Positions 3,748 through 18,000 of a DNA stretch of 64,000 nt are shown piece after piece. A program made the translations under genes and the position numbers. Numbering within the stretch: the first letter of the stretch is position 1; each line of letters begins with the position of its first letter. This stretch comes from an uncultured Chloroflexia bacterium (GTDB taxonomy: Bacteria; Chloroflexota; Limnocylindria; Limnocylindrales; CSP1-4): assembly GCA_963809375.1 (NCBI GenBank), contig CAWEJO010000004.1, forward strand, positions 350,850-414,849, written 5' to 3'. A model generated the notes under the pieces. The model was not told the origin of the DNA. It was given only the letters and a program-made list of their open reading frames with translations, and searched no databases.

Positions 3748-6543
3748 GTGACCAACCGGCGCCGAGCCGCCCCGCTTCCGCCCGCCGCCCTCGGCCGCGC
3801 CGCTCGTCTTCTGGTCCTTGCCGGGCTCCTGGCCGCCCTCGGTGCCGTGCTCCCCGCGATCGCACACGGCGCGCTGGCCGCGGACCCGTCGCCGTCGGCC
3901 TCGCCGGGCGCCTCAGCGGCAGCCGAGCCGGCCGGACTCGGCATGGATGCCCGGGCGCTGCTGCAGGGTCACGCCCGGCCCGGCGCGTGGATGGCCGTCA
4001 ACGTGAGCCTCTCGAACGACGGCCCACCGATCACGGGCGAGCTCCGGATGGTCGGCGGCACGCAGGGGACGACCCGCTTCTCGGTGCCGGTGGACCTCCC
4101 GACCACGTCCCGGAAGTCGTACTCGATGTACATCCAGGCTCCCGTCTTCGGCTCGAAGCTCGACGTGGCCCTCGTCTCCGGCGAGAGGGTCGTGGCGAAG
4201 CGCCAGGTCGCCTTCGCCCTCCACGACGTGAGCCAGCTGAGCGTCGGGGTCGTGGCCGAGCGGCCGGGCGACCTCGTCGCGAGCCTCGCCCGGGTCAGCG
4301 ATCCCACCGCGCCCCGCCCCGCCGTCTTCGGCCTCGTCCCGGCCGACCTGCCGTCACGCCCGGAGGCCTGGGCGCCGGTCGATCGACTGGTCTGGCAGGA
4401 CGTCGACTCGTCCGAGCTCACCCGGGAGCAGATGGCGGCCCTCCGGACGTGGCTCGCCGGCGGCGGCCGCCTCACGATCGTCGGCGGGACGAACGGGGCG
4501 AACGTGCTGGGGGCGTTCCCCGACGAGCTCCTGCCGTATCGCCCCGCCACCACCCTCGACGTGGACCCGAGCGAGCTCCGGGCCCTCGTCGGCGGCACGC
4601 TCCCGGCCAACGCGACGCCCGTCGCGGCCCTCGCCGGCGAGCTCACGCAGGGCCGGGCCATCGCGACGAGCGGCGGCGCGGGCGATCGTCGCCGAGACGA
4701 CCTACGGCTCGGGCGGCGTTGCGATCGTCGGGTTCGACCCGGCCTCTTCGTGGCTCGCCGGGACCGATCGCGCCGACGCCGTCTGGCAGCGCGTGGTGCC
4801 GGCGCGGGCAGGCGCCGCGGGCCAGATCCTCGTCGGGGACGACAGCCCGTTCGTGCAGCTTCTTGGCAACCTGCCGTCGCTCGCCATTCCTTCGATCGAG
4901 GGCCTGCTGCTCCTGCTCGTCGGCTACATCATCCTCGTCGGGCCGGTCAACTACCTCGTCCTGCGCCGCCTCGACAGGCGCGAATGGGCCTGGCTGAGCA
5001 TCCCGCTCATCGTCGTCGGCTTCACCGTCGCGGCGTTCGCCATCGGCAGCTCGCTGCGCGGCAGCAACGTGATCGTGAACCAGGTCGCGGTGGTGCGCGG
5101 CGCGCCGGGCACCGACGCCGCCCAGGCCGAGGTCTTCCTGGGCATCTTCTCCCCCACCCGTTCCACCTACGACGTGACGGTCGGGGCCGGGGCGCTCGTC
5201 ACGGCCCCCGTGAGCGACCCGACCGGGACCGGGACGAGCGGCAACCTCGACGTCATCCAGGCCGACACGGCGACGATCCGCGGCCTGACGGTCGCCTACG
5301 GCTCGATGCGGGCGATGCGCGCCGACTCGACGGTCACCGCGCCAAAGGTTGCGGTCACGCTCGCGGTCCACGACGGGCGCCTGACGGGCACCGTCCGGAA
5401 CGATTCGACGGTTCCACTGGCGAGGGCGACGGTGGTCCTCGGCATGACGGCCGCGCAGGTCGGAGACCTCGCCCCGGGCGCGTCGGCGAAGATCGACGTC
5501 GCACTGCAGTCGGTCGGCGTCCAGGGATCAAATCTGTCGGACCGGGTGTTCGGGCCGCAGGGCGGCGTCATGTTCGACGGCAGCCCCCCGTCGGACTACA
5601 TCCGCGAGATGGTGCGCCGTGGGCTGCTCGACGCGCTCACGTACGACCCGTTCTCGGGCTGGACGGGCACGCTGCCGACGAGCGGGCCGGTCCTCCTGGC
5701 CTGGGGCACGCCCGGGCTCCTCGACGTAAAGGTCGGTTCCGAGAGCCCGGTCACCTCCGGCGAGACGCTCTACTACATCCCGCTCGACTTCAGCATGTCG
5801 GGCCGGACGATCTTCACGCCCGACCTGCTGCGGGTCACGACTGTCGACAACAAGGCCCAGATGTTCCAGAAGGATCCGACCTTCATCGGGATGGGCACCG
5901 GCTCGGTGACGCTCGCCTATCGGCCGATCTCGCTCCAGGGAACGCTCGCGGAGCCGCGCCTCATCATCGCCACCGACACCGGCGACCCGTTCAACATCCC
6001 GACGCCGGCGCAGAAGCTGACGGCCGGTCCGCCCGCCGCGCCCTCTCCCTCGGCCTCCCCGTCACCCTCGGCGTCGCCAGTGGCATCGCCTTCGCCGGGC
6101 GCGTCCTCTTCGCCGGGCGCGTCCTCTTCGCCGGGCGCGCACTCCCGCGCCCTCCTCTCGCCGGGGCGTCTCCCGGATCGCCGTCGCCGGGCGGTCCGGC
6201 CCTGCCGCCCGACTCGCCGCCCCCGACGGACGCGCCCGCGCCGACCGCGTCCGCCGTCCCAACGGTGGCGCCGAGCGACCCGGCCTCCCCCGTCCCGGCG
6301 GCTCCCGTCCCGGCACCCGTGCCTTTCGTTCCGGGCCGGCCTACCTTCGAGCTCTTCGACATCGTGGCAGGAGCGTGGCGCCAGCTGCCGGCCCTGCCGT
6401 CTGGCCAGTCGGTCGAGATCAACGAGGCGGACCACTTCGTCGATCCGGCTTCGGGAACGGTCCTCGTCCGCCTCACGAACAATGACGCCGGCAACCAGAT
6501 CGGGCTCCAGCTCTCCGTCAGGATCGAGGGGACCATCCGATGA
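3748..6543 (+). CDS. large (~930 aa) membrane protein: GldG-like (ABC_transp_aux-type) N-terminal half, a central TM pair, a second extracytoplasmic half with a Pro/Ser-rich linker; reading frame interrupted twice (near 4678 and near 6130-6150)
   Basis: GGGAGG lies 5 nt before the GTG at 3748. The N-terminus is a signal/TM segment (AARLLVLAGLLAALGAVLPAIA), and the block QDVDSSELTREQMAALRTWLAGGGRLTIVGG resembles the GldG/ABC-auxiliary core. After ...AIATSGG the protein continues in the +1 frame (AIVAETTYGSGGVAIVGFDPASS..., TM pair LAIPSIEGLLLLLVGYIILVGPV...WLSIPLIVVGFTVAAFAIG). A second 1-nt frame change inside a PS-rich 18-bp tandem repeat returns it to the frame ending with TGA at 6543, which overlaps the downstream ATG (ATGA). 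Confidence 0.45.
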   Translation: MTNRRRAAPLPPAALGRAARLLVLAGLLAALGAVLPAIAHGALAADPSPSASPGASAAAEPAGLGMDARALLQGHARPGAWMAVNVSLSNDGPPITGELRMVGGTQGTTRFSVPVDLPTTSRKSYSMYIQAPVFGSKLDVALVSGERVVAKRQVAFALHDVSQLSVGVVAERPGDLVASLARVSDPTAPRPAVFGLVPADLPSRPEAWAPVDRLVWQDVDSSELTREQMAALRTWLAGGGRLTIVGGTNGANVLGAFPDELLPYRPATTLDVDPSELRALVGGTLPANATPVAALAGELTQGRAIATSGGAGDRRRDDLRLGRRCDRRVRPGLFVARRDRSRRRRLAARGAGAGRRRGPDPRRGRQPVRAASWQPAVARHSFDRGPAAPARRLHHPRRAGQLPRPAPPRQARMGLAEHPAHRRRLHRRGVRHRQLAARQQRDREPGRGGARRAGHRRRPGRGLPGHLLPHPFHLRRDGRGRGARHGPRERPDRDRDERQPRRHPGRHGDDPRPDGRLRLDAGDARRLDGHRAKGCGHARGPRRAPDGHRPERFDGSTGEGDGGPRHDGRAGRRPRPGRVGEDRRRTAVGRRPGIKSVGPGVRAAGRRHVRRQPPVGLHPRDGAPWAARRAHVRPVLGLDGHAADERAGPPGLGHARAPRRKGRFREPGHLRRDALLHPARLQHVGPDDLHARPAAGHDCRQQGPDVPEGSDLHRDGHRLGDARLSADLAPGNARGAAPHHRHRHRRPVQHPDAGAEADGRSARRALSLGLPVTLGVASGIAFAGRVLFAGRVLFAGRALPRPPLAGASPGSPSPGGPALPPDSPPPTDAPAPTASAVPTVAPSDPASPVPAAPVPAPVPFVPGRPTFELFDIVAGAWRQLPALPSGQSVEINEADHFVDPASGTVLVRLTNNDAGNQIGLQLSVRIEGTIR

Positions 6544-7553
6544 CCGCCATCGTCCGGACCGAGGGACTCGTCAAGCGCTACGCGGGAACCCTCGCCGTCG
6601 CGGGCCTCGACCTCGCGGTGGAGGAGGGCGAGATCTTCGGGATCGTCGGGCCCAACGGCGCCGGAAAGACGACGACGCTGCGAATCCTCGCCACGCTGCT
6701 CGCGCCGACCTCGGGCGACGCGGAGGTTGCCGGCGCATCGGTCCGCCGGAACCCCAACGCGGTGCGGCGGGTCGTCGGGTTCATGCCCGACAGCTTCGGC
6801 GTCTACGACGACATGCGGGTGTGGGAGTATCTCGACTTCTTCGGCCGCTGCCACGGCCTGCCCGCCGACCGGCGCAGGCGGGCCGTGTCCGACCTGCTCG
6901 AGCTGGTGGACCTCGGGGCCAAGCGCGAGGCGTACGTCAACACGCTCTCGCGCGGCATGCAGCAGCGGCTGTGCCTCGCCCACGCGCTCGTCCACGATCC
7001 CGCGGTGCTCGTCCTCGATGAGCCCGCGTCGGGCCTCGACCCGCGGGCCCGGGTCGAGCTCCGCGAGCTGCTCCGCGAGCTCCGGGCGCTCGGGAAGACG
7101 ATCCTGATCAGCAGCCACATCCTGCCCGAGCTCGAGGAGCTGTGCACCAGCCTCGCGATCATCGACCATGGCAAGGTGCTCGCCCAGGGAAGGCTCGCCG
7201 ACATCGAAGCCCGGCTCCGCGTCGGCGCTGTCATCCGGGTGCGCGTCCTCGGCGACGGCGGCGGCCTCGAAGCCGCGCGTGCGCGGATCGCGGCCGAGGC
7301 TGGCGTCGTGGGCGTCGACGAGGCGGGCGATGGGCTGCTCGAGGTCGCCTTCACGGGTGACGACGAAGCGGCCGCGGCCCTGCTGGGGACCCTCGTGCGC
7401 GGGGGCGTGCGAGTCGTCTCGTTCGGCCGGGCGGTGTCCGACCTCGAGGAGCTCTTCCTGCAGATGACCGGCGAACGCGACGTCGAGGCCGGCGAGGTCG
7501 AGACGGCCGAGAGTGTGGCCCCGGCTGCCACGGGCACGGAGGCGCGACGATGA
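6540..7553 (+). CDS. ABC transporter ATP-binding protein (GldA-like, ABC-2 subfamily)
   Basis: Intact 337-aa ORF with Walker A GPNGAGKTT, signature LSRGMQQRL, Walker B VLVLDEPASGLD and H-loop. The start overlaps the upstream stop (ATGA) and the stop overlaps the downstream start. Confidence 0.85.
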   Translation: MTAIVRTEGLVKRYAGTLAVAGLDLAVEEGEIFGIVGPNGAGKTTTLRILATLLAPTSGDAEVAGASVRRNPNAVRRVVGFMPDSFGVYDDMRVWEYLDFFGRCHGLPADRRRRAVSDLLELVDLGAKREAYVNTLSRGMQQRLCLAHALVHDPAVLVLDEPASGLDPRARVELRELLRELRALGKTILISSHILPELEELCTSLAIIDHGKVLAQGRLADIEARLRVGAVIRVRVLGDGGGLEAARARIAAEAGVVGVDEAGDGLLEVAFTGDDEAAAALLGTLVRGGVRVVSFGRAVSDLEELFLQMTGERDVEAGEVETAESVAPAATGTEARR

Positions 7554-8758
7554 GGACACATGTCTCGCTGCTTGCAGCCGGTGTCGGCGCGGTCGCGACC
7601 AAGGAGCTGCGCGGGCGGATGCGCGGCTGGCGGGCGTTCATCTCGCTGACGCTGTACGTGGCCCTGCTGGCCGGGTTCACCATCCTCGTCTACTTCGCGA
7701 TGCGCCGGTCGTACGCGAACGGCGGCAGCTTCGGCGGCACGCCGTTCGCGTCGGCAAGCGTCGGCCAGTCGATCTTCGAAGTCCTGATGGTCATCCAGAC
7801 CATCCTGGTCGTGTTCCTCGCCCCGGCCTTCACCTCCGGCGCGATCAGCCTCGAGCGCGAGAAGCAGACCCTCGACATGCTCGCCGCCACGCCGGTGCCC
7901 AGCCTCGCGATCGTGCTCGGGAAGCTGTTCTCCGCGCTCGCCTTCGTGGGCATGCAGATCCTGGCATCGGTGCCGCTGGTCGCCGTCGTCTTCGTCTTCG
8001 GCGGCATCGCGCCCGACGACATCGTGCGCGGCTATCTCGTGCTGCTGGTGTGCGGTTTCGGGTTCGGCTGCATCGGCCTCGCCCTGTCGTCGATCACCCG
8101 CCGCACCCAGGCGGCGACGGTACTGACCTGGCTGATGGTGCTCGGGCTGACGCTCGGGACCGCGACCATCTTCGCCCTCTGGAACGGCATCGCCGCGCCG
8201 GCCCAGTCGAACATCGGGATGCCGCAGCCGGCTCCCATGGTCGACGACTCGAACGGGGGCTTCGGCGGCTCGACCGGCTCGACGGGAGCGTCGTCGACGT
8301 CGGGCATCCCGCAGCCCCCCGAATGGATCCTGTGGCTCAATCCCGGGGTCGCGATGGGCGACGTCGTGTGCGGCGCTGGCATGGATCCGTACTCGCTCGA
8401 GTGTCGTGGGGTGGCGTTCGCGCTCCACCAGGACGCGGGGCAGGTCTTCAGCCGCGACATGATCATCAAGGGCGGGGCCGCGGGGCTGGTGGGCGGGCCG
8501 GTCAACGTCGGGGTGACGGGCGTGGTCGGTGGCTTCGCGGCCGGTGGGTTCGTTGCCGACCCGACGGCGTCGGCGACCCCGTCCGTCCGAGACCGCCTGT
8601 GGCCCAAGATCGCCGCGGCCTGGCTCGTGGTGTCGCTGCTGCTCATCGCATTCTCGGTCGTCATGGTCCGCCCACGCGGCGCGCGGCGCCGCTCGCTCAG
8701 GCCGGGGCGCCCGCACCTGCGGCGGCGACGCAGCGCGACCCGGGAGACTCCGGCGTGA
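7550..8758 (+). CDS. ABC-2 type transporter permease (GldF-like), 6 TM
   Basis: Intact 402-aa ORF coupled by ATGA to the ATPase. Multiple hydrophobic helices are visible (TLYVALLAGFTILVYF, IQTILVVFLAPAFTSGAI, LVLLVCGFGFGCIGLAL, IAAAWLVVSLLLIAFSVVMV). Confidence 0.7.
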   Translation: MRTHVSLLAAGVGAVATKELRGRMRGWRAFISLTLYVALLAGFTILVYFAMRRSYANGGSFGGTPFASASVGQSIFEVLMVIQTILVVFLAPAFTSGAISLEREKQTLDMLAATPVPSLAIVLGKLFSALAFVGMQILASVPLVAVVFVFGGIAPDDIVRGYLVLLVCGFGFGCIGLALSSITRRTQAATVLTWLMVLGLTLGTATIFALWNGIAAPAQSNIGMPQPAPMVDDSNGGFGGSTGSTGASSTSGIPQPPEWILWLNPGVAMGDVVCGAGMDPYSLECRGVAFALHQDAGQVFSRDMIIKGGAAGLVGGPVNVGVTGVVGGFAAGGFVADPTASATPSVRDRLWPKIAAAWLVVSLLLIAFSVVMVRPRGARRRSLRPGRPHLRRRRSATRETPA

Positions 8759-10760
8759 GGCGACCGCGATCCCTGCGGCGCGGCCGTGCGGTTTCCCGGC
8801 CGCTGGCGGCTCCGATCCTGCCCGCGCTCCCCGCCGAGTCGGCCTCGGACCCGGCGCTGCGGGCCATCCGGGCTGGCCTGCGCCGCCACCGCGACAGGCT
8901 CTGGCTGCGGCGCGCCGCCCGGCGCTGGTGGCGGGTCGTCGCGTCCGTGGCGATCCTCGAGGCGGCCGTCCTGGCAGCCGCGCGGCTGGTCCCGATCGAG
9001 ATCCTGCCGCTGCTGATCGTCGCCATCCCGTTCGGCGGCCTCGCCGTGGCGCTCGTCGCGGGAGCCTTCGCACGACCGACGCTCGGGGCGACGGCCCTCG
9101 CCCTCGACGCCGAGGGCCGCCTGCGCGACCGCGTGGCGACCGCCGTGGCCTTCGCGGCCGCGCCGACGGAGGCGGGCGACGAAGCGCCGCCCGAGGCAGG
9201 CATGCTGGCCCGGTTCGTCCGGCGCCAGCGGGCCGACGCGGCATCCGCGATCGCGACCGTCGCTCCGGACCTCTTCCGGCCGTCGATCGCGCGGCTGCCG
9301 GGCATCGCGACGCTGGTGGCCGCCGCGCTGATCCTGCCGCTGGCCCTCCTGCCGAACGCCATGGACGCCACGATCGCGCGCGACCGCACCATCCGCGAGG
9401 AGGCGGCGCGCCAGGCCGACCGGGTCGAAGCGGTCGCCCGCGAGCTCGAGAAGAAGGGAACCTCGGCCAACGATCCGCGCACGCGCAGCGCGCAGGAGCT
9501 CCGCGACATCGCGAAGCAGCTGCGGGAGCGCTCGTCCGAGCTCGACAAGAACCTGGCCCGCATCGGCGACGCCGAGACCGCCCTGCGCGACCAGCTCGAT
9601 CCCGGCAACGAGCAGCGCGGCGCGGCGCTTGCCGCGCTGAGTCGCGGGCTCTCCCGGGCGGCGACGGGCAACCCGCAGGCGAATCCGGGCGGCGACCCGA
9701 AGACGGCACGCACCGACCTCGAGTCGCTGGCGAACGGGCTCGACAGCAAGTCGAACGCAGACCTGCAGAAGCTTGCCGGCGACCTCTCCGCCCTCCAGCC
9801 GGTCGCGCAGCAGGCGGGTGCGGGGGCCGACGCGGCACTCCGGGCCGCGGCCGATGCGCTCGCCCGAGGGGACCGCCCGGCGGCCGCGGATGCGCTTCGG
9901 CGGCTCGGCGAGACACTCGACAACGCCGATACCGAGGTGCAGACGAACCGCGACCTGGCGGGGGCGGCGGCCCAGCTCCAGGACGCGCGCCGACAGCTCG
10001 CCGACGCCGGGCGGCAGGGTGAAGCCTCGGGGCAGCAGGGCCAGCAGGGCAACGGGCAGCAGGGCTCCGGCCAGCAGGGCTACGGCCAGCAGGGCAACGG
10101 TCAGGCGGGCGCCTCGGGCCAGCCGGGCAACGGCCAGGCGGGCGCCTCGGGCCAGCCGGGCGCCTCGGGCCAGCCGGGCAACGGCCAGGCGGGCGCCTCG
10201 GGCCAGCCGGGCGCCTCGGGTCAGGGCCAGGGGCAGGGCCAGGGCCAGGGCCAGGGCCAGGGGCAGGGCCAGGGCCAGGGGCAGGGCCAGGGGCAAGGCC
10301 AGGGCCAGGGGCAAGGCCAGGGCCAGGGGCAAGGCCAGGGGCAAGGCCAGGGCCAGGGGCAAGGCCAGGGGCAAGGTGCCGGCCTCGGCGGCGGCACGAG
10401 CGCTCGCTACCTGGGCAACCGGACCGGCGGCACCACCAGTCTCGGCCAGCCCACCAACCCCACCAAGCCGTGGACCGTCGGCGCAGACCAGGGCTCGGTC
10501 TTCGCACCCTTCGACCGCGTCGGCAAGCCGGGCGACCCGACCTACATCGCCGGCAGCGGCGGCAACGGCGGGCAGCTCAACCCGGGCTCCACGACCGGCC
10601 AGGGACAGCAGAACCAGGGCATCGTGCCGTACACGAACGTGTTCGCCGACTTCCTCCGGTACGCCCAGGCCAGCCTCGACCGCAGCTACGTCCCGCTCGC
10701 CGTCAAGGACTACGTCCGCGACTACTTCAGCGCGCTCGACCCGACCCAGGAGGCCAAGTG

Positions 10761-10761
<1 letters not shown>
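8755..10761 (+). CDS. membrane-anchored coiled-coil protein with Gln/Gly-rich repeats, (GQ)n tract and conserved C-terminal domain
   Basis: The GTG overlaps the permease stop (GTGA). Three predicted TM segments are followed by a long heptad-like region (EAARQADRVEAVARELEKK...LRDIAKQLRERSSELDKNL...). The low-complexity run GQQGQQGNGQQGSGQQGYGQQGNGQAGASGQP... precedes ~28 GQ dipeptides encoded by (GGCCAG)n. The C-terminal block ends ...YVPLAVKDYVRDYFSALDPTQEAK, and its stop overlaps the moxR start. Confidence 0.5.
10081..10218. repeat. tandem 33/36-bp repeats (GGCAACGGCCAGGCGGGCGCCTCGGGCCAGCCG units) encoding GNGQAGASGQPGASGQP
   Basis: Near-identical units are directly visible between 10081 and 10218, inside the CDS 8755..10761. 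Confidence 0.7.
10219..10380. repeat. hexanucleotide microsatellite (GGCCAG/GGGCAG/GGCCAA)x~27 encoding (Gly-Gln)n
   Basis: An uninterrupted run of GGNCAR hexamers is visible at 10219-10380, inside the CDS 8755..10761. Confidence 0.85.
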
Positions 10762-11765
<1,004 letters not shown>

Positions 11766-11779
11766 CCGGGTCGCAACGC

Positions 11780-12859
11780 GTGGAGCAGGCGAACCGGCCC
11801 GACGCCCCGGCCAGCGCGGCGGCGACGCCGCGCGCGCTCGGAGGCCCCGCAGCCCCCGGTCGACCCGGCGGGGCGAACGCCGGATCGAGCGCCGGATCGA
11901 GCGCCGGATCGAGCGTCGGATCGACACCTGCGACGCCGGGTCGCGAGGGCACACGGGCCGCCTTCCTGCCCTCCGACGTCGACCCGACCGTCTTCGACGA
12001 AGCGTTCCTGCGGAGCCTCGAACGCCTCGTGGTCCTCGTGAAGCGGCCGGTCCGGGGTGGCCTCAAGGGTGGCCGGCGGAGCGTCAAGCGCGGCCAGTCC
12101 GTGGAGTTCGCCGACTACCGCGACTACTCGCTCGGGGACGACCTGCGCCAGCTCGACTGGAACATCTACGCGCGCCTCGAGAAGCTGTTCGTCAAGCTCT
12201 TCATCGAGGAGGAGGACCTGACCGTCACGTTCCTCCTCGACGCATCCGCTTCGATGGCGCACGGCACGCCCGACAAGCTCGTGTTCGCCAAGCGGGCGGC
12301 CGCGGCGCTCGGCTACATCGCCCTCGCGTCCGAGGACCGGGTGACCGTCGCCACGCTCTCGGGGCGGGTCGCCCGGCGGCGCTCGGCGCTGCGGGGATCA
12401 GGCCGCGCGTTCCGCCTCCTGGCGGACCTCTCGGCGATCGAGACGACGCCCGGCCCGACCGACCTCGTGGCGGCCTGCCGGCATGCGGCGGCGCAGCTCC
12501 ACGGGCGCGGCGTCCTCGTGCTCGTGAGCGACCTCCTGGATCCAGCCGCCGACCGCGCGATGCGCGACCTTGCCGGCACCGGCGCCGAGGTCATCGTGCT
12601 CCACGTGCTGGCGCCGGACGAGGTCGAGCCGGACCTCGTCGGCGACCTGCGCCTCGTGGACGCCGAGACGGGGGCGAACGTCGACGTGACCCTCGACCTT
12701 GCGGCCCGCGACCGCTACACCGAACGCGTGCGGGCGTGGCGTGAGGAGCTGGCGGCCCTCGCCGCGCGACGACGGATCGCGTACGTGCCGCTCACCTCGG
12801 ACGTCCCGCTCGCCGACCTCGTCTTCGCCGAGCTCCGGCGCCGGCAGGTCGTCGGGTAG
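11780..12859 (+). CDS. DUF58-domain protein (MoxR-associated, VWA-like)
   Basis: Intact ORF with the DUF58 core GQSVEFADYRDYSLGDDLRQLDWNIYARLEKLFVKLFIEEEDLTVTFLLDASASM, immediately downstream of moxR. Confidence 0.8.
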   Translation: MEQANRPDAPASAAATPRALGGPAAPGRPGGANAGSSAGSSAGSSVGSTPATPGREGTRAAFLPSDVDPTVFDEAFLRSLERLVVLVKRPVRGGLKGGRRSVKRGQSVEFADYRDYSLGDDLRQLDWNIYARLEKLFVKLFIEEEDLTVTFLLDASASMAHGTPDKLVFAKRAAAALGYIALASEDRVTVATLSGRVARRRSALRGSGRAFRLLADLSAIETTPGPTDLVAACRHAAAQLHGRGVLVLVSDLLDPAADRAMRDLAGTGAEVIVLHVLAPDEVEPDLVGDLRLVDAETGANVDVTLDLAARDRYTERVRAWREELAALAARRRIAYVPLTSDVPLADLVFAELRRRQVVG

Positions 12860-12867
12860 GGGCAGCC

Positions 12868-15010
12868 ATGTCGTTCATCGCGCCGCTCGGGCTGCTCGGA
12901 CTGGCGTTCCTGCCGGTCATCGTCGCCTTCTGGATGCTCAAGCTGCGCCGAACGGAGCGCATCGTCGGGTCGACCGTCCTGTGGAAGCGGTTCGGCGAGG
13001 ACCGCGAGGCGAACCAGCCGTGGCAGCGGCTGCGGCGCTCCCTCCTGCTCCTGCTCCAGCTGCTCCTCGTCGTCGTCCTGGCGCTGCTCGTGGCGCGCCC
13101 GTTCGCCGAGCGCCCGGCCGGCCTCGCCAAGGACGTCGTGCTCGTGATCGACGCGTCCGCGAGCATGGCGGCGACCGACGTGGCGCCGTCGCGGCTCGAG
13201 GCCGCCAAGGCGGGGGCGCTCGAGAGGCTGCGCGACCTGCCGGCCGGCGGCCGGGTCAGCGTGGTGGAAGCCGGCGCCGTGCCGCGGGTCGTGGTCAACG
13301 CCACCAGCGACCTCGGGCGGGTCCGGGCGGCAGTCGCCGCCGTGCGGGCCGCGCCCGCGGTCGGGGACATGCCCGCGGCCCTGCGGCTTGCCTCGGGCCT
13401 GGCGTCGCGCTCGGCGGACGCCCAGGTGATCGTGGCGACCGACGCGGCGTTCACCCTGCCCGCGGATCTGCGGGTCGCGGCGCCCGTGTCGGTGGTGGCG
13501 GTCGGCCGCGACCGCCGCAACGTGGCGATCGTGGCGCTCGCGGTGCGCGCCTCGCCGTCGTCGGTCACCCGCTCGGTCTTCGCGTCGGTGGCCAACCTCG
13601 GCGCCGAGATCGCCGCCGTCCGCCTCGAGGTCTACGGCGACGGCAACCTGCTCGAGGCCCGCCAGCTCTCGATCGATCCCGTGACGCGGGCCGACGTGGG
13701 CATCGACGACGTTCCCGCCAACGTCCGGACGATCGAGGTGCGCGTGGTGGGCGGCGACCTGCTGGCCTTCGACGACCGCGCCTGGGCCATCGTGCCGGAC
13801 CAGCGCGCCATCAACGTGCTGCTCGTCTCGGACGGCGACCCGTATCTCGAGACCGCCCTCCAGCTCCTGCCCGGGATCCAGCCCTTCGAGGTCGGCAAGC
13901 AGGGCCTCGCCGCCGCGCTCGCGGAGCGGAGCTACGACGTCCTGATCCTCGACGGCTCGCTCCCGGCGACGCTGCCGCGGATCCCGACGCTGGCGATCGC
14001 GCCGCCGGCCACGAGCGCCCTCGGCACGCTGACGGGCGCACTGACGAACCCGGCGCTCGGCACCCCGAGCCCCGACGAGCCCCTCCTGCGCTACGTGGAC
14101 CTCACCACGCTTCATGTCGCCGCGGCTCAGCGGCTGACGCTTCCCGACTGGGCCCGGACGGTCCTGCCCGGCGCGGCCGGCGACCCGCTTCTCTACGCCG
14201 GCGAGCGCGACGGCATCGCGACCGCCGTCCTCGCGTTCGAGCCGCGACGCTCCGACCTGCCGCTGCAGGTCGCCTTCCCGGTGCTCGTCTCGAACCTCAT
14301 CGGCGCGCTCGCCGGCGCCGCCGAGGCGCCCGAAACGGCGCTGGCCCCGGGATCCCTGGTGACGCTGCCCATCCCGGCCGGCGCCACCGGCCTGCGGGTG
14401 ACGAGGCCCGACGGCACGGCCGTCGAGCTCGTGCCGTCGGTCCCGGGCGGGCTCAGCGCGACCTATGCCGCAACCGACCAGCTCGGGGTCTATGCCGTGG
14501 AGCCGGTCGGCGTGGCAGCATCGCCGGCGCCAAGTGCCGCGACCCCATCGCCGACCCTGAGCGCCGCGACGCCGACGTCCGGCGCGTCGCCGGGCGCCTC
14601 GGCCGGCGCCTCCGCGAGCGTGAACCCGGCGGCGACCGGCCCGACCAGGTTCGCGGTGGACCTCTTCGACGTCGGCGAATTCGACGATCACGCCGGGCGT
14701 CCCGGAGCTGCTGACCGCGGTCGGCGGGCGGGCCGGCGAGGGCGCCGGTCCCGACGCCTCGCCAGGGGCCTCGCCGAACGCTTCTCCCGGTACCTCGCCG
14801 GGCGCATCGCCCGTGACGGCCGGCAGCCCGCCGGAGCGCGCGCCGGCCCGCGACGAGGTCTGGCCGATCGTCGCGGCGATCGCGCTCGTCCTCCTGCTCG
14901 TCGAGATGCTCGTCGCCGAGCGCGACGCATTCGTCCGCCTGCGCCGCTGGCTCGGCGCGCGGGTCGGCCGCCGCCCGAGGCCCGGGACGCCCGTCCGGAG
15001 GGGCACCTGA
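12868..15010 (+). CDS. BatA-type VWA protein (BatA_N double-TM N-terminus, VWA domain, long extension, C-terminal TM); one frame interruption near 14685
   Basis: The N-terminus MSFIAPLGLLGLAFLPVIVAFWMLKLRRTERIVGSTVLWKRF matches the BatA_N/two_anch signature. The VWA MIDAS-like motif VVLVIDASASMAA is present. After ...FDVGEF the protein continues in the +1 frame (STITPGVPELL...WPIVAAIALVLLLVEMLV...) to the TGA at 15010. Confidence 0.6.
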
Positions 15011-18000
15011 TGCCCCTCTCGTTCGCGACGCCCGCCCTCCTGCTGCTCCTGCCGGTCCTGCTCGCGCTCGTCGTTGGCATCCACCTCCTGGCCCGGGGCG
15101 GCTTCGGGGAGGCGCGCTACCGGATCGCGCTCGTGGTTCGCGGCGTCATCATCGGCGCGCTGCTCTTCGCCCTCGCCGGCGCCGCGGTCACGCTCCCGAC
15201 GGACCGCCTGGCAACCGTCTTCGTGGTCGACCTCTCCGATTCGGTCGGCAACGCCGGGCGCCAGCAGGCGCTCGCGTTCGTCCGCGACGCGCTGGCGGCA
15301 CGCCCCCAAGGTGATCTCGCGGGCGTCGTCGCGTTCGGGCGGGATGCCCTCGTCGAGCGCCTGCCCGACGAGCTCGCGGCGATCGACCGGATCGCGTCCA
15401 CGCCGGTCAGGACCGCGACAGACGTCGGCGCCGCGCTCCGGCTCGCCGCCGCGCTCTTCCCGGACGATGCCCAGAAGCGCATCGTGCTGCTCTCGGACGG
15501 GAACGACACCACGGGCTCCGGGCAGGTCGAGGCCGCTCGCGCGGGAGCGCGCGGCGTGACCGTGGACACGCTCCCGATCGGCCTCGGGGGCGCCGACGAG
15601 GTCCTCGTGGAGCGGCTCGGCGTCCCGTCGACCGCCCGCCTCGGCGAGGCGCTCTCGCTGGTCGCGGACATCCGCTCGACGGTCGAACAGCCGGCCACGG
15701 TCCGCCTGTTCGCCGACGGCGGCCTCGTCGACACCACGTCCGTCCAGCTCCCCGCGGGCGTCACCCAGGTCGCCTTCGAGCAGACGCCGGCCGAAGCCGG
15801 GTTCCACCGCTACCGGGTCGTGGTCGAGGCCGGCCGCGACACGTTCGCCCAGAACAACCGTGCCGACGGCGACAGCCTGGTCAGCGGACCGCCGCGCGTG
15901 CTGGTGGTGGCGCCCGAGGGCGACCTCGCTGCCGACCTTGTGACCGCCCTCCGATCGCGCGAGGGGAGCGTGGTCCAGATGCTGCCCGAGCAGGTCCCGC
16001 CGGACGTCGCCTCGCTCATCGGGTTCGACAGCACGGTCCTGGTCAACGTCCCCCGGGCGCGTTTGACCGACAAGCAGCTCGAGGCGATCCGGACGGCGGT
16101 CCGCGACTATGGCAAGGGCCTGGTCATGATCGGCGGCGACGAGAGCTTCGGCGCGGGCGGCTACCGCGACACGCCGATCGAGGCGGCGCTCCCGGTCGAG
16201 ATGCAGGTCCGGAGCAAGCAGAAGCAGCCCGACATCGCGCTCGTGGTCGTGATCGACGAGTCGGGCTCGATGGCGGCCTGCCACTGCAACTCGTTCGACC
16301 GGAGCATGGCCGGCAATCGCCAGCTCGCGGGCGTCCAGAAGGTCGACATCGGCAAGGAGGCGATCCTGCGGGCGGCCGCCGCGATGACCTCGCGCGACGA
16401 GCTCGGCGTGGTGGCCTTCAACGAGGCTGCCCACTGGGTCGTCCACACCGAGCCGCTGGGGGCCGTGACGGACCTCCAGGGCAACCTGTCGGGGATCCGG
16501 GCCGACGGCCAGACGAACATCATGGCGGGCCTCGACGAGGCCGTGAAGTCGCTCGAGCAGACGACCGCCACCCGGCGCCACCTGATCCTGCTGACCGACG
16601 GCTGGTCCACCTCGGGCCAGTACGACGCGATCCTGGCCCGCATGAAGGCCGCCGGAATCACCCTCTCGACAGTCGGCGCCGGCGGGGCGCCAACCCCTTC
16701 CTGCAGCAGCTCGCGGCGCAGGGCGGGGGCCGCTTCTACCCGGCGACCGACCCGTCGACGATCCCGGACATCTTCCTCAAGGAGACGCAGCAGGTCGCGG
16801 GGCAGCAGATCATCGAGGAGAGCTTCTTCCCGACGCTCACCGGCTCGTCGCCGATCATGCGCGGGCTCGACGCCGGGCTGCCGTCGCTGCAGGGCTACGA
16901 CGGGACGACGATCAAGCCGGCCGCCCAGCAGGTGCTCGCCTCGGCGCGGGCCGACCCGGTCCTCGCGCAGTGGCAGTACGGCCTCGGGCGGGCGGTCGCC
17001 TGGACGTCCGACGCCACGGCGCGCTGGGCCCGCAACTGGGTCGGCTGGCCCGGGTTCACGCGGTTCTTCGGCCAGCTCGTGAGCTGGACCTTCCCGGGCG
17101 AGGAATCCGGCGGGATCGAGGCCCGGTTCGTCACGGGCCCAGCCGGCACCACGCTGCGGGTGGAGAGCGTCGGCCCCGACGGATCGCCGCGGGACTTCTA
17201 CTCGACGTCGGTGACGGTGGTCGACCCGGCGCTCGACGAATTGAAGCTGGAGCTCTCCCAGGTCGCGCCCGGCGTCTACGAGGCGCCGATGGGCGAGCTG
17301 ACGTCGGGCGCCTACGCGCTGCGGGTGACGCAGACACGGTCCGGGGCGGCGGCGGTCGGCCGGACGCTCGGCCTGGTGGCGCCGACGCCGGCCGAGTATC
17401 GGCTGCTGGGCACGAACGTGCCACTCCTCGCCGCGATCCGCGCGGCGACCGGGGGCGGCGGTCACGGCGCCGGTCGACGCCTGGCGCCACGACCTGGGCT
17501 CGACGACGCGCGAGACGCCGCTCTGGCCATGGCTCCTCGCCCTCGCGCTCCTCCTCTGGCCGCTCGACGTTTTCCTGCGCCGCGTCGCGATCGGGCGCCG
17601 CGACGTGACCGCAGGGGCGCGCTGGGTGCGGGCGATTCCGGCACGACGTGGGCGCGTCGCGGTCCGCGAGGCGGGCGCAGAGGCGATGCTCGCGGCGCGC
17701 GGACGGGCGGGCTCGAGCGGCGCGCGCAGCGCGCTGGCGACGGCCCGCGAGTCGACGGCCGTGGCAGGATCTGCGGCTGCGGCAGGCTCGGGGGCCACTC
17801 CCGCGCAGACGGCGGCGCCCGGCGACGTGACGCGCACGGCAGCCAGCACCCCTCCGCCGGCCGCTTCCCCGAAGACGGCAGCGCCCGGCGGCGTTGCGAG
17901 CTCGACGGGCGCTGCGGCAACTCCCCCGCCCGGCGCGGCGCCCGGTGGCGTGGCGGGCCCGGCGGCCACCACTCCCCGCCGGCTGGCGCCGCCGGCCCTC

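What the first reader, a model, noticed from the sequence alone, without database searches (positions are those of the whole stretch)
10019..10380. Hexanucleotide microsatellite (GGCCAG)n encoding ~28 Gly-Gln dipeptides, preceded by 33/36-bp tandem repeats, inside a membrane coiled-coil protein
A perfect in-frame 6-bp microsatellite of ~160 bp sits directly next to longer tandem repeats (GNGQAGASGQP units). It is a natural site for replication slippage. Changes in units of 6 bp keep the frame, so the Q/G-rich spacer between the coiled-coil stalk and the conserved C-terminal domain could vary in length between cells or strains, like contingency loci in surface proteins. Q/G-rich low-complexity linkers are also typical of phase-separating or elastic segments.
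Basis: seen in the sequence. Interest (0 to 1): 0.6.

Follow-up and report, generated by a model that had tools for sequence, protein, structure and literature searches.

The report
Gly-Gln repeat tether in membrane protein
A run of 26 glycine-glutamine pairs is part of a long, floppy, uncharged tether in a membrane protein of an uncultured Chloroflexota bacterium. The tether is real and conserved and changes length by repeat slippage over evolutionary time, but nothing here shows it to be a fast-switching "contingency" locus.

Summary
The repeat is real. Nucleotides 10219-10374 encode an uninterrupted (GQ)26. It is preceded by three 33-bp GNGQAGASGQP units mixed with 18-bp GASGQP units, and by 9/15-bp GQQ units. 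It is not a perfect microsatellite: 16 GGCCAG, 6 GGGCAA, 3 GGGCAG and 1 GGTCAG, with a longest pure run of 4 units. All differences are synonymous.

The gene (8755-10761, 668 aa) encodes a 3-TM protein with a confident helical domain, a roughly 190-aa disordered region and a conserved C-terminal helix hairpin. It lies in a conserved operon: ABC ATPase, ABC-2 permease, this gene, MoxR, DUF58, BatA/VWA.

Orthologues about 52-61% identical carry (GQ)20, 21 and 28, with even more scrambled synonymous codons. CAA makes up 23-50% of Gln codons in the tracts against 0-5% in flanking genes. Other orthologues have only (GQ)3-5. Linker length ranges from 34 to 125 aa. One near-identical pair of homologues differs by exactly one 45-bp linker unit.

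The tract therefore evolves by slippage under protein-level selection and most likely acts as a flexible spacer. It lacks the marks of a contingency locus. Long (GQ)n tracts also occur in unrelated viral proteins. Verdict: new member of a known kind, modest interest.

The parts
8755..10761 (+). Host gene, 668 aa. The GTG start overlaps the stop of the upstream permease, and the stop overlaps the ATG of MoxR. It belongs to an uncharacterised membrane protein family with no Pfam or NCBIfam model.
   Evidence: ORF and start codon. GC3 0.93. Orthologues. No family hit.
8755..8934 (+). Arg-rich N-terminal tail (aa 1-60, 18 K+R against 3 D+E), inferred to be cytoplasmic.
   Evidence: Charge counts for the window protein and 141 relatives. 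The location follows from the positive-inside rule and is an inference.
8935..9069 (+). Transmembrane hairpin: TM1 at aa 61-79 and TM2 at aa 84-105.
   Evidence: Mean hydropathy +1.7 and +2.1 across the family. Predicted helices H33-78 and H84-104.
9070..9309 (+). Loop (aa 106-185) with the conserved D-x-E-x-x-L-x-D-R...A-L-E motif. Net positive across the family, inferred to be cytoplasmic.
   Evidence: Invariant A114, D118 and A130. Charge counts.
9310..9360 (+). TM3 (aa 186-202).
   Evidence: Mean hydropathy +1.9. Predicted helix H180-198.
9361..10038 (+). Helical domain (aa 203-428): about nine helices with pLDDT above 90, ending in a 55-residue helix. It is net acidic across the family, about -24 over family segments 203-420. 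Inferred to be extracytoplasmic.
   Evidence: AlphaFold2 model. Charge counts.
10030..10092 (+). Repeat zone a: GQQ and GxGQQ units (9 and 15 bp).
   Evidence: The same GNGQQ units occur in L001 and L003.
10093..10218 (+). Repeat zone b: three 33-bp GNGQAGASGQP units plus 18-bp GASGQP units (51-bp composite). The copies are almost identical at the DNA level, which points to recent duplications.
   Evidence: TRF period 33 at 95% matches and period 51 at 89%. Unit list.
10219..10374 (+). Repeat zone c: (GQ)26 encoded by an imperfect hexanucleotide array (16 GGCCAG, 6 GGGCAA, 3 GGGCAG, 1 GGTCAG).
   Evidence: CAA is 6/26 here against 3% of Gln codons in the window's genes, p = 2e-4.
10375..10758 (+). 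Conserved C-terminal region (127 aa). It holds the short motifs GGG(S/T)xAR.LG and SVFAPFDR.GKPGDP.Y in a low-confidence segment. A helix hairpin follows (aa 626-661, nt 10630-10737), and the protein ends in the family signature VP..VKDYVRDYFS.LDP.
   Evidence: Alignment. pLDDT profile. The signature is present in about 147 family representatives.
6540..7553 (+). Operon neighbour: ABC transporter ATPase.
   Evidence: PF00005, E = 3.7e-28. Synteny in seven loci.
7550..8758 (+). Operon neighbour: ABC-2 family permease.
   Evidence: PF12679, E = 1.2e-15. Synteny.
10761..11765 (+). Operon neighbour: MoxR-type AAA+ ATPase.
   Evidence: PF07726 AAA_3, E = 3.3e-63. 76-85% identical in orthologous loci.
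11780..12859 (+). Operon neighbour: DUF58 protein.
   Evidence: PF01882, E = 2.4e-37.
12868..14694 (+). Operon neighbour: BatA N-terminal domain plus VWA protein. Its C-terminus continues in another frame after about nt 14690, an apparent frameshift.
   Evidence: PF07584 and PF13519. tblastn and frame translations.
15010..16900 (+). Operon neighbour: protein with two VWA domains. Its orthologues also carry a GATase1_like domain.
   Evidence: Orthologue domains.

Best explanation
The (GQ)26 run and the repeats before it form the core of a roughly 125-residue, uncharged, intrinsically disordered G/Q-rich tether. The tether links a membrane-anchored, acidic helical domain to a small conserved C-terminal module. 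That module consists of short linear motifs plus a helix hairpin ending in ...YVRDYFS.LDP.

The host is a 3-TM protein that is a fixed component of an operon: ABC transporter, this gene, MoxR, DUF58, BatA/VWA. By the positive-inside rule, the helical domain, the tether and the C-terminal module lie outside the cytoplasmic membrane. VWA domains of BatA-type proteins are found on that side too.

The tether most likely acts as a flexible spacer, like a fishing line. Its job would be to let the C-terminal module reach a partner at a distance.

The DNA repeat is how the tether is made and resized. Slippage or unequal recombination of 6-, 12-, 18-, 33- and 45-51-bp units expands and contracts it over evolutionary time. 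Purifying selection on the peptide removes every non-synonymous change. Synonymous changes accumulate and, if anything, are favoured, because they reduce repeat purity and self-pairing.

Shown: repeat anatomy, coding frame, conservation of the tract, synonymous scrambling, length variation between orthologues, predicted disorder, and operon context. Inferred: topology, the spacer function, and the partner.
For: 1. Anatomy and frame.
2. AlphaFold2 gives pLDDT below 50 for aa 433-456, 459-578 and 583-621, between confident helices (pLDDT above 90, aa 205-425) and a C-terminal hairpin.
3. Orthologues only 52-61% identical elsewhere keep uninterrupted (GQ)28, (GQ)21 and (GQ)20 at the same position. 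Frame-corrected L006 and L007 also hold long tracts.
4. All unit differences are synonymous. CAA makes up 23-50% of Gln codons in the four tracts against 0-5% in flanking genes (p = 5e-4 to 2e-6). In L001-L003 the modal unit is rarer than under synonymous randomisation (P = 0.013, 0.023 and 0.000). The RNA fold is weaker than 99.7-100% of synonymous randomisations in L002 and L003, and weaker than 91% in L001.
5. Linker length is loosely constrained at 34-125 aa, with G+Q at 58-82%. Long and short forms are interleaved on the tree.
6. One near-identical pair differs by one 45-bp unit.
7. In about 147 family representatives the pre-C-terminal region is G 18%, Q 17%, A 13%, S 9%. A G/Q-rich tether is therefore a family trait.
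8. The operon is conserved in seven Limnocylindrales-type loci and partly conserved in distant members.
9. Charge distribution over 142 sequences (the window protein and 141 relatives) fits N-in and C-out. A BatA-type VWA domain was shown to face the periplasm in Borrelia (PMC5700661).
Against: - No experiment or structure bears on the function. PDB fold search found nothing significant, and there is no Pfam or NCBIfam model.
- Topology rests only on the positive-inside rule. If the C-terminal part were cytoplasmic, the partner would differ (for example MoxR or DUF58).
- In the window itself, unit heterogeneity and RNA fold energy do not differ from the codon-usage expectation, apart from CAA. 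The six GGGCAA copies are probably not independent events.
- The short tracts in P0001, P0002, P0003 and P0005 could be assembly collapses rather than real contractions. Two metagenome contigs end inside the tract.
- A 3.7-fold range of linker length argues against a precise ruler function.
Confidence: 0.55

Rival explanations
1. Contingency-type hypervariable locus. The tract slips often enough that cells or strains of one population carry different spacer lengths, and this heterogeneity is itself adaptive, as with repeat regions of surface proteins in pathogens.
For: - Tandem repeats with several unit sizes, including nearly identical 33-bp copies.
- Higher-order patterns in the GQ run that imply recent multi-unit duplications.
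- Large length differences among orthologues, interleaved on the tree.
- One near-identical pair that differs by one 45-bp unit.
- Pure (GGCCAG)n would fold very stably (-132 kcal/mol), so it is prone to slipped structures.
Against: - The longest pure run is only 4 units.
- Orthologous tracts are more scrambled than codon usage predicts (L001-L003). The rare CAA codon is enriched in all four tracts. Purity is not maintained.
- The changes keep the frame, so no switch results.
- Another near-identical pair has identical linkers.
- The host is an environmental Chloroflexota bacterium. The protein is a housekeeping-type operon member, and no obvious selective agent such as an immune system is known to act on it.
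- No population data exist for this organism.
Confidence: 0.12
2. Neutral low-complexity expansion. The linker only has to be disordered and hydrophilic. The pure GQ run is a by-product of slippage in a G/Q-rich region and has no function of its own.
For: - Across the wider family the linker is G/Q/A/S-rich but not a strict GQ repeat. The longest run in about 147 representatives is 5 units.
- Close relatives manage with (GQ)3-5 and linkers of 34-56 aa.
- Linker length varies 3.7-fold.
Against: - Four lineages keep 20-28 uninterrupted GQ units while accumulating many synonymous differences and no amino-acid change. Only 4 of the 18 possible single-base changes in GGCCAG are synonymous.
- No decayed GQ-like units flank the run.
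- A caveat applies. The tract was delimited as the perfect run, and the units are not independent.
Confidence: 0.2
3. Sequence-specific self-association. In a beta-strand, alternating Gly/Gln would form a Gln polar-zipper face and a Gly face, as in silk (GA)n. The tract would then drive oligomerisation, gel formation or condensates of the protein at the envelope.
For: - Strict conservation of the alternation at the protein level.
- Q/G-rich composition, which in other systems occurs in prion-like domains (established knowledge; Rnq1 QG repeats are mentioned in papers listed).
Against: - There is no direct evidence.
- AlphaFold predicts no structure, although it could not detect such assemblies.
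- Family members without strict GQ presumably work.
- The tract coexists with very different lengths.
Confidence: 0.08
4. Assembly artefact. The repeat count, or the whole tract, results from mis-assembly or collapse.
For: - Two metagenome contigs of relatives end inside the tract.
- The window has apparent frameshifts in three neighbouring gene regions, so it contains indel errors.
- L006 and L007 have frameshifts inside their tracts.
Against: - The tract is in frame.
- Its units are heterogeneous enough to give unique anchors.
- Independently assembled orthologues hold tracts of similar length at the same place.
- The flanking sequences align with homologues on both sides.
Confidence: 0.03
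5. Nucleic-acid-level element. The sense-strand (GGGCCA)n G-quadruplex motif, or the GGCC-based hairpins in the mRNA or DNA, regulate translation or transcription of the operon. The peptide would be secondary.
For: - The longest G-quadruplex-motif cluster in the window lies at 10191-10293 on the coding strand. Three of the 7 plus-strand motifs are in this linker.
- The tract folds strongly (-88 kcal/mol).
Against: - Variation is confined to synonymous sites of one frame, which shows that selection acts on the peptide.
- Orthologous tracts have much weaker folds than expected (-33 to -50 kcal/mol). Structure is not conserved.
- The GGGCAA units break the G4 spacing in the 3' half.
Confidence: 0.02

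Closest known systems
Ser-Asp (SD) dipeptide-repeat R region of staphylococcal ClfA/Sdr surface proteins
   Same: - A long, perfect dipeptide repeat encoded by a degenerate array of synonymous hexanucleotide units.
- It lies between an anchor and a functional domain of an envelope protein.
- Repeat number differs between strains (PMC5902956). Its role as a wall-spanning spacer is established knowledge.
   Different: - SD is acidic and is glycosylated; GQ is uncharged, and nothing is known about its modification.
- Sdr proteins are sortase-anchored adhesins of a pathogen. This is an N-terminally anchored 3-TM protein in a MoxR/VWA operon of an environmental Chloroflexota bacterium.
- There is no sequence homology.
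TonB proline-rich linker, (Glu-Pro)n-(Lys-Pro)n
   Same: A dipeptide-repeat, intrinsically disordered or extended linker joins an inner-membrane anchor to a small C-terminal partner-binding domain across the envelope (PMC10771500).
   Different: - TonB repeats are charged, form rod-like polyproline-II helices, and are short (about 70 residues in all).
- GQ is Gly-rich and expected to be highly flexible.
- A different system, with no homology.
Simple-sequence contingency loci of Haemophilus and Neisseria (Moxon-type phase variation)
   Same: A short tandem DNA repeat inside a gene for an envelope protein, with slippage as the mutational mechanism.
   Different: - Contingency loci have long, pure tracts. 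Unit changes shift the frame or the promoter spacing and so switch expression.
- Here the tract is impure (at most 4 identical units), the unit is 6 bp and in frame, and no population heterogeneity is documented.
TIGR02302 / DUF4175 proteins of Alphaproteobacteria (recalled from memory: N-terminal TM helices and a long extracytoplasmic region with Gln/Gly-rich low complexity)
   Same: The overall design is the same: an N-terminal TM anchor, a long helical region, and Q/G-rich low complexity.
   Different: No sequence match. Neither the window protein nor 10 diverse family members hit PF13779 or TIGR02302 (E up to 10 for the window protein against Pfam, 0.01 against NCBIfam, and 0.1 for the ten relatives). 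Any relationship is unproven.
(GQ)n tracts in unrelated proteins of viral contigs
   Same: Tracts of (GGNCAR)12 or more, up to 45 + 44 units, with mixed synonymous codons, lying between folded domains. There are 76 tracts in 73 of 2.9 million contigs, and the GQ frame is the longest ORF in 53 of them.
   Different: The protein families are different and mostly low-GC. One example is a secreted protein with Asp-rich calcium-binding-type repeats. The tract is not in a MoxR operon, and there is no homology outside it.

Membership tests
Contingency (phase-variable simple-sequence) locus | Long uninterrupted tract of identical short units | tested here: not met
   The longest run of identical hexamers is 4 in the window and 3-4 in orthologues. 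Four unit types are mixed.
Contingency (phase-variable simple-sequence) locus | Unit number varies within a population or between near-identical strains | tested here: inconclusive
   No reads and no close relative of the window organism were found. In homologues, one pair more than 99% identical differs by one 45-bp unit. Another such pair does not differ.
Contingency (phase-variable simple-sequence) locus | A unit change switches or modulates expression, by frameshift or promoter spacing | tested here: not met
   All unit sizes (6, 9, 15, 18, 33 bp) are multiples of 3 and lie inside the ORF. The frameshifts seen in L006 and L007 are single-base, homopolymer-type indels and look like sequencing errors.
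Dipeptide-repeat envelope spacer (SD-repeat / TonB type) | Perfect dipeptide repeat at the protein level, encoded by degenerate synonymous units | tested here: met
   (GQ)26 with only synonymous differences. The same holds in L001-L003.
Dipeptide-repeat envelope spacer (SD-repeat / TonB type) | Disordered or extended segment between a membrane anchor and a distal conserved module | tested here: met
   pLDDT is below 50 for aa 433-621, between 3 TM helices plus a helical domain and a conserved C-terminal hairpin.
Dipeptide-repeat envelope spacer (SD-repeat / TonB type) | Located on the extracytoplasmic side and spanning the envelope | tested here: inconclusive
   Positive-inside charge pattern over 142 sequences (the window protein and 141 relatives) fits N-in and C-out. 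No experimental topology and no dedicated predictor were available.
Dipeptide-repeat envelope spacer (SD-repeat / TonB type) | Function requires a minimum spacer length | not testable with these tools
   Needs genetics. Natural linkers range from 34 to 125 aa.
DUF4175 (PF13779) / TIGR02302 | Match to the family HMM | tested here: not met
   No hit for the window protein (Pfam, E up to 10; NCBIfam, E up to 0.01) or for 10 diverse relatives (E up to 0.1).
MoxR-DUF58-BatA/VWA (Bat-like) gene module | Conserved adjacency to MoxR (AAA_3), DUF58 and BatA/VWA genes | tested here: met
   The order ABC ATPase, ABC-2 permease, this gene, then MoxR, DUF58 and BatA-VWA is complete in the window and in L001, L002, L003 and L007; L004-L006 end before MoxR. 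Distant members lie next to DUF58/BatA or to VWA+GATase1_like genes.

The most novel reading that the evidence does not exclude
The strict Gly-Gln alternation is itself the functional element rather than a generic spacer. It could be a silk-like polar-zipper segment that assembles the protein into an envelope-associated mesh or gel. Alternatively, it could be an array of glutamines that a partner enzyme of the operon modifies or cross-links; the VWA proteins downstream carry a GATase1-like domain in orthologues. Under this reading, the excess of rare synonymous codons would be selected to keep such a long repeat genetically stable.
Probability: 0.1. Interest if true: 0.6.

Novelty: new member of a known kind. 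Interest (0 to 1): 0.3.

Why it matters
- The case shows how a bacterial low-complexity linker can be built and resized by slippage while selection acts on the peptide. The tract stays perfect as protein for 20-28 units in lineages that are only about 52-61% identical elsewhere, while its codons are scrambled.
- It warns against reading every in-frame microsatellite as a contingency locus.
- The host protein is the more useful lead. It belongs to a large family (1,867 clusters at E <= 1e-30) with no Pfam or NCBIfam model, and it is a fixed partner of the poorly understood MoxR-DUF58-BatA/VWA modules in Chloroflexota. A tethered C-terminal motif gives a concrete hypothesis to test about how these modules work at the envelope.
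- For assemblers, the tract is a place where contigs break and where long-read indels create false frameshifts.

Tried and rejected
- Exact look-up of the protein returned no record.
- Genome and metagenome scans for close relatives found only orthologues with 52-57% identity over the best segment. Strain-level repeat counts for this organism could therefore not be obtained.
- Pfam and NCBIfam found no family for the protein, its halves, or 10 relatives.
- Foldseek against PDB gave no match below E = 0.5. The AFDB library was unavailable.
- A profile comparison with a Planctomyces plasmid protein from a DUF58-BatA-VWA cluster gave only a weak N-terminal resemblance (probability 10%). It was rejected as evidence of homology.
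- Literature searches for GQ or Gly-Gln repeats in bacteria and for DUF4175/TIGR02302 found nothing relevant.
- The idea that P0004 and P0007 show real frame-switching in the tract was considered. It was judged unlikely because all the indels are single-base changes in G or C homopolymers, and both contigs come from ENA assemblies with adjacent accession numbers. This was not proven.
- The G-quadruplex or hairpin regulatory reading was rejected because structure is not conserved in orthologues.
The full-length alignment was used instead.
Full report
**Observation.** The window is about 72-75% G+C. On the + strand, an ORF in the frame of 7513-10761 holds the repeats. The only start codon near the end of the upstream gene is GTG at 8755, which overlaps the permease stop. 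The gene is therefore 8755-10761 and encodes 668 aa. Its stop overlaps the ATG of the next gene. GC3 is 0.93 in this frame.

Codon-by-codon reading shows three nested repeat zones:
- 10030-10092: GQQ and GxGQQ units of 9 and 15 bp.
- 10093-10218: three 33-bp units (GNGQAGASGQP, with one mismatch among the three copies) interleaved with 18-bp GASGQP units. Together they form a 51-bp composite. TRF reports period 33 at 95% matches and period 51 at 89%.
- 10219-10374: exactly 26 Gly-Gln codon pairs.

The last zone is not a perfect (GGCCAG)n. It has 16 GGCCAG, 6 GGGCAA, 3 GGGCAG and 1 GGTCAG, and the longest run of identical units is four. Every difference is synonymous. The other five reading frames give dipeptide runs of only four units. 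This is the strongest tandem-repeat block in the 64 kb and the only match to (GGNCAR)4 or more on either strand.

**The protein.** Neither Pfam nor NCBIfam matches it, even at E = 10 against Pfam for the whole protein and its two halves. AlphaFold2, run on a 12-sequence alignment, predicts the following:
- Helices through residue 428, with pLDDT above 90 for roughly 205-425. They form about nine helices rather than a single coiled coil.
- Very low confidence for 433-456, 459-578 and 583-621.
- A C-terminal helix hairpin at 626-661, with pLDDT about 70.

Foldseek against PDB found nothing below E = 0.5. There are three hydrophobic segments (aa 61-79, 84-105 and 186-202). Across 142 sequences (the window protein and 141 relatives):
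- the N-terminal tail is net positive (+3.9);
- the TM2-TM3 loop is net positive (+2.3);
- everything after TM3 is strongly acidic (-7.9 and -16.5).

By the positive-inside rule, the helical domain, the G/Q region and the C-terminus lie outside the membrane. This is an inference.

**Gene context.** The neighbours, in order, are:
- an ABC ATPase (6540-7553);
- an ABC-2 permease (7550-8758);
- this gene;
- a MoxR AAA+ ATPase (10761-11765);
- a DUF58 protein (11780-12859);
- a BatA-N plus VWA protein (from 12868);
- a double-VWA protein (from 15010).

The same order occurs in the seven related loci I recovered, as far as each contig reaches; the MoxR-DUF58-BatA side is present in L001, L002, L003 and L007. 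More distant family members lie next to DUF58/BatA or to VWA+GATase1_like genes. In Borrelia, a BatA-type protein was shown to be an inner-membrane protein whose VWA domain faces the periplasm (PMC5700661). This is compatible with an extracytoplasmic partner for the protein studied here.

**Relatives.** The word-indexed search found 13 homologues. Those that carry a source name are Chloroflexota or Candidatus Limnocylindrales MAG proteins, and the closest full-length ones are 50-55% identical by BLASTP. The exact protein is not on record. Genome and metagenome scans found only orthologues with 52-57% identity over the best segment.

An exhaustive profile search found 10,610 proteins at E <= 1e-3 and 1,867 at E <= 1e-30. 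These are mostly full-length matches of 530-640 aa. The ones that carry names are hypothetical proteins of Chloroflexota, and ten diverse members have no Pfam or NCBIfam hit. All end in a signature like (Y/I)(V/I)P..L(K/R)D(Y/V)V(R/K)(D/E)YF..L(E/D)P. The region before that signature is 18% G, 17% Q, 13% A and 9% S. A G/Q-rich tether is thus a family trait, but the longest strict GQ run among about 147 representatives is five units.

**The tract in orthologues.** Long strict tracts are a feature of the Limnocylindrales-type clade. The counts are (GQ)28 in L001, (GQ)21 (plus 5 and 4) in L002, (GQ)20 in L003 and (GQ)26 in the window. Two ENA contigs (L006, L007) have called proteins that pass through other frames of the repeat (AKAR..., PGPG...). 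When the single-base indels are ignored, they too hold long GQ tracts. All the indels lie in G or C homopolymers, so I read them as sequencing errors. This is an inference. Other orthologues (P0001, P0002, P0003, P0005) have only (GQ)3-5.

From the end of the last helix to the GGG(S/T)xA motif, the linker measures 34-125 aa with 58-82% G+Q. On a neighbour-joining tree of the non-linker columns, long and short forms are interleaved. Two metagenome contigs end inside the tract. Assembly evidently breaks there, so some short forms may be collapses.

**Selection at the DNA level.** In all four in-frame long tracts the units are mixtures of GGC/GGG/GGT and CAG/CAA. None has an amino-acid interruption.
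- CAA is 3% of Gln codons in 21 genes of the window and 0 of 42 in the rest of this gene, but 6 of 26 in the tract (p = 2e-4).
- In the four loci, CAA is 23-50% of tract Gln codons against 0-5% in flanking genes (p = 5e-4 to 2e-6).
- I compared each tract with 300 synonymous randomisations drawn from the local codon usage. L001-L003 have a rarer modal unit (P = 0.013, 0.023 and 0.000).
- L002 and L003 have much weaker RNA folds than those randomisations. L001 leans the same way, being weaker than 91% of them.
- The window's own tract is close to expectation: 16 modal units against 17.7 expected, and an MFE of -88 against -95 +/- 10 kcal/mol.
- A pure (GGCCAG)26 would fold at -132 kcal/mol.

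Only 4 of the 18 single-base changes to GGCCAG are synonymous. Tens of synonymous differences without one replacement therefore indicate purifying selection on the peptide. Two caveats apply: the units are not independent, and the tract was delimited as the perfect run. This pattern is not what a locus kept mutable would be expected to show.

**Short-term change.** Two pairs of near-identical homologues could be compared. P0003 and P0176 differ by three substitutions and by exactly one 15-residue unit (PGQSPGQGQGSGSPQ; two copies against three) in the G/Q linker. P0001 and P0175 are 99% identical and have identical linkers. Unit-count change between close strains does therefore occur in this family, unless one assembly collapsed a unit. 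It is not ubiquitous, and it is documented for a 45-bp unit rather than for the hexamer.

**How common the feature is.** A pattern scan for (GGNCAR)12 in 2.9 million viral contigs found 76 tracts in 73 contigs, with up to 45 + 44 units. The GQ frame is the longest ORF in 53 of them. They lie in several unrelated, mostly low-GC proteins, and again have mixed synonymous codons. Long (GQ)n linkers are thus rare but recurrent, and not peculiar to this family. I found no paper describing bacterial GQ dipeptide repeats.

**Interpretation.** The best-supported reading is a disordered, uncharged G/Q tether that joins a membrane-anchored helical domain to a small conserved C-terminal module. The protein belongs to the MoxR-DUF58-BatA/VWA machinery. 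The DNA repeats are the means by which the tether expands and contracts over evolutionary time. The peptide is what selection sees.

The closest functional analogues are:
- the Ser-Asp repeat region of staphylococcal Sdr/Clf proteins, which vary in SD repeat number (PMC5902956);
- the Glu-Pro/Lys-Pro linker of TonB (PMC10771500).

The protein is not a member of DUF4175/TIGR02302 by HMM, although the overall design, as I recall that family, is similar. The contingency-locus reading fails two of its three defining features (a pure tract and a switching effect). The third, population heterogeneity, cannot be tested here. An assembly artefact is unlikely for the existence of the tract, but the exact count of 26 remains unverified.

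**Quality note.** The window itself has apparent frameshifts in neighbouring genes: near 4670, inside 5990-6330, and near 14690. Single-base indel errors therefore probably exist in this assembly. The gene studied here is nevertheless in frame throughout.

**Verdict.** The feature is real and conserved, but an ordinary kind of thing: a slippage-built dipeptide-repeat linker. It has a neat signature of protein-level selection, and it sits in an uncharacterised but widespread protein family. Novelty: new member of a known kind. Interest: about 0.3.

Noticed in passing
window 3943-6543: The gene upstream of the ABC ATPase is the orthologue of an 826-aa membrane protein in L007 and has a weak DUF4350 hit. 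In the window it is split over frames: 3943-4674 in frame 1, 4685-5986 in frame 2, and 6334-6540 in frame 1. It therefore has at least two apparent frameshifts, one of them inside a Pro/Ala/Ser-rich low-complexity linker. That linker also holds a perfect 18-bp x 2.8 repeat at 6090-6139.
   Followed up: partly
window ~14690 and ~16900: The BatA/VWA gene matches its orthologue only to nt 14694 in frame 1. A plausible C-terminus with a TM segment continues in frame 2, which is another apparent single-base indel. The end of the next VWA gene, near 16900, also reads like out-of-frame sequence. Together with the previous item, this suggests indel errors in the assembly of the window.
   Followed up: partly
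window 8755-10761 and proteins P0019-P0165: The host protein belongs to a large family: 10,610 hits at E <= 1e-3 and 1,867 at E <= 1e-30 among 50%-identity representatives. The members that carry names are almost all 'hypothetical' Chloroflexota proteins. The window protein and ten diverse members have no Pfam or NCBIfam match, and the loci examined place the gene beside MoxR/DUF58/BatA/VWA genes. It is a candidate for a new family definition.
   Followed up: partly
L006 7231-7500; L007 7288-7600: In two ENA contigs, the called orthologues read the GQ repeat in other frames (AKARVK..., PGPGSRAG...). L006 returns to frame after three single-base deletions. L007 never returns and loses the C-terminal domain in the call. 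All the indels lie in G or C homopolymers, so they are probably sequencing errors rather than biology.
   Followed up: partly
L004 (end of contig) and L005 (end of contig): Two JGI metagenome contigs carrying orthologues stop inside the G/Q repeat block (L005 within the long GQ tract). Up to its end, L005 is identical to the MAG contig L002. The tract is a breakpoint for short-read assembly.
   Followed up: no
window 10029-10293 (+ strand): Three of the seven plus-strand G-quadruplex motifs of the window lie in this linker, including the longest cluster (10191-10293). The GGGCAA units in the 3' half lengthen the loops beyond 7 nt and break the motif.
   Followed up: partly
proteins P0003 and P0176: Two homologues in one 90% cluster differ by three substitutions and by exactly one 15-aa (45-bp) unit, PGQSPGQGQGSGSPQ, in the G/Q linker. 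This is either strain-level copy-number variation or an assembly collapse.
   Followed up: yes
L012-L084 (viral contigs), e.g. L047, L018, L069, L015: Long (GQ)n tracts, up to 45 + 44 units and sometimes interspersed with GE units, occur in unrelated proteins on viral contigs. One example is a secreted protein with Asp-rich calcium-binding-type repeats. Another is a family starting MEEEKQLLASLL. Their codons are also mixed.
   Followed up: partly
window 11874-11924: A 12-bp x 4.2 tandem repeat lies in the N-terminal, non-conserved part of the DUF58 gene and encodes GSSA-like units. It is another in-frame low-complexity repeat in the same operon.
   Followed up: no
L011 6297-8531 (Planctomyces sp. 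SH-PL62 plasmid pPL62-3): A 744-aa hypothetical protein lies after DUF58-BatA-VWA genes. Its N-terminal TM hairpin plus 'D..L.L..R' region weakly resembles the N-terminus of the family studied here (hhalign probability 10%). It may be an analogous component in Planctomycetes.
   Followed up: partly
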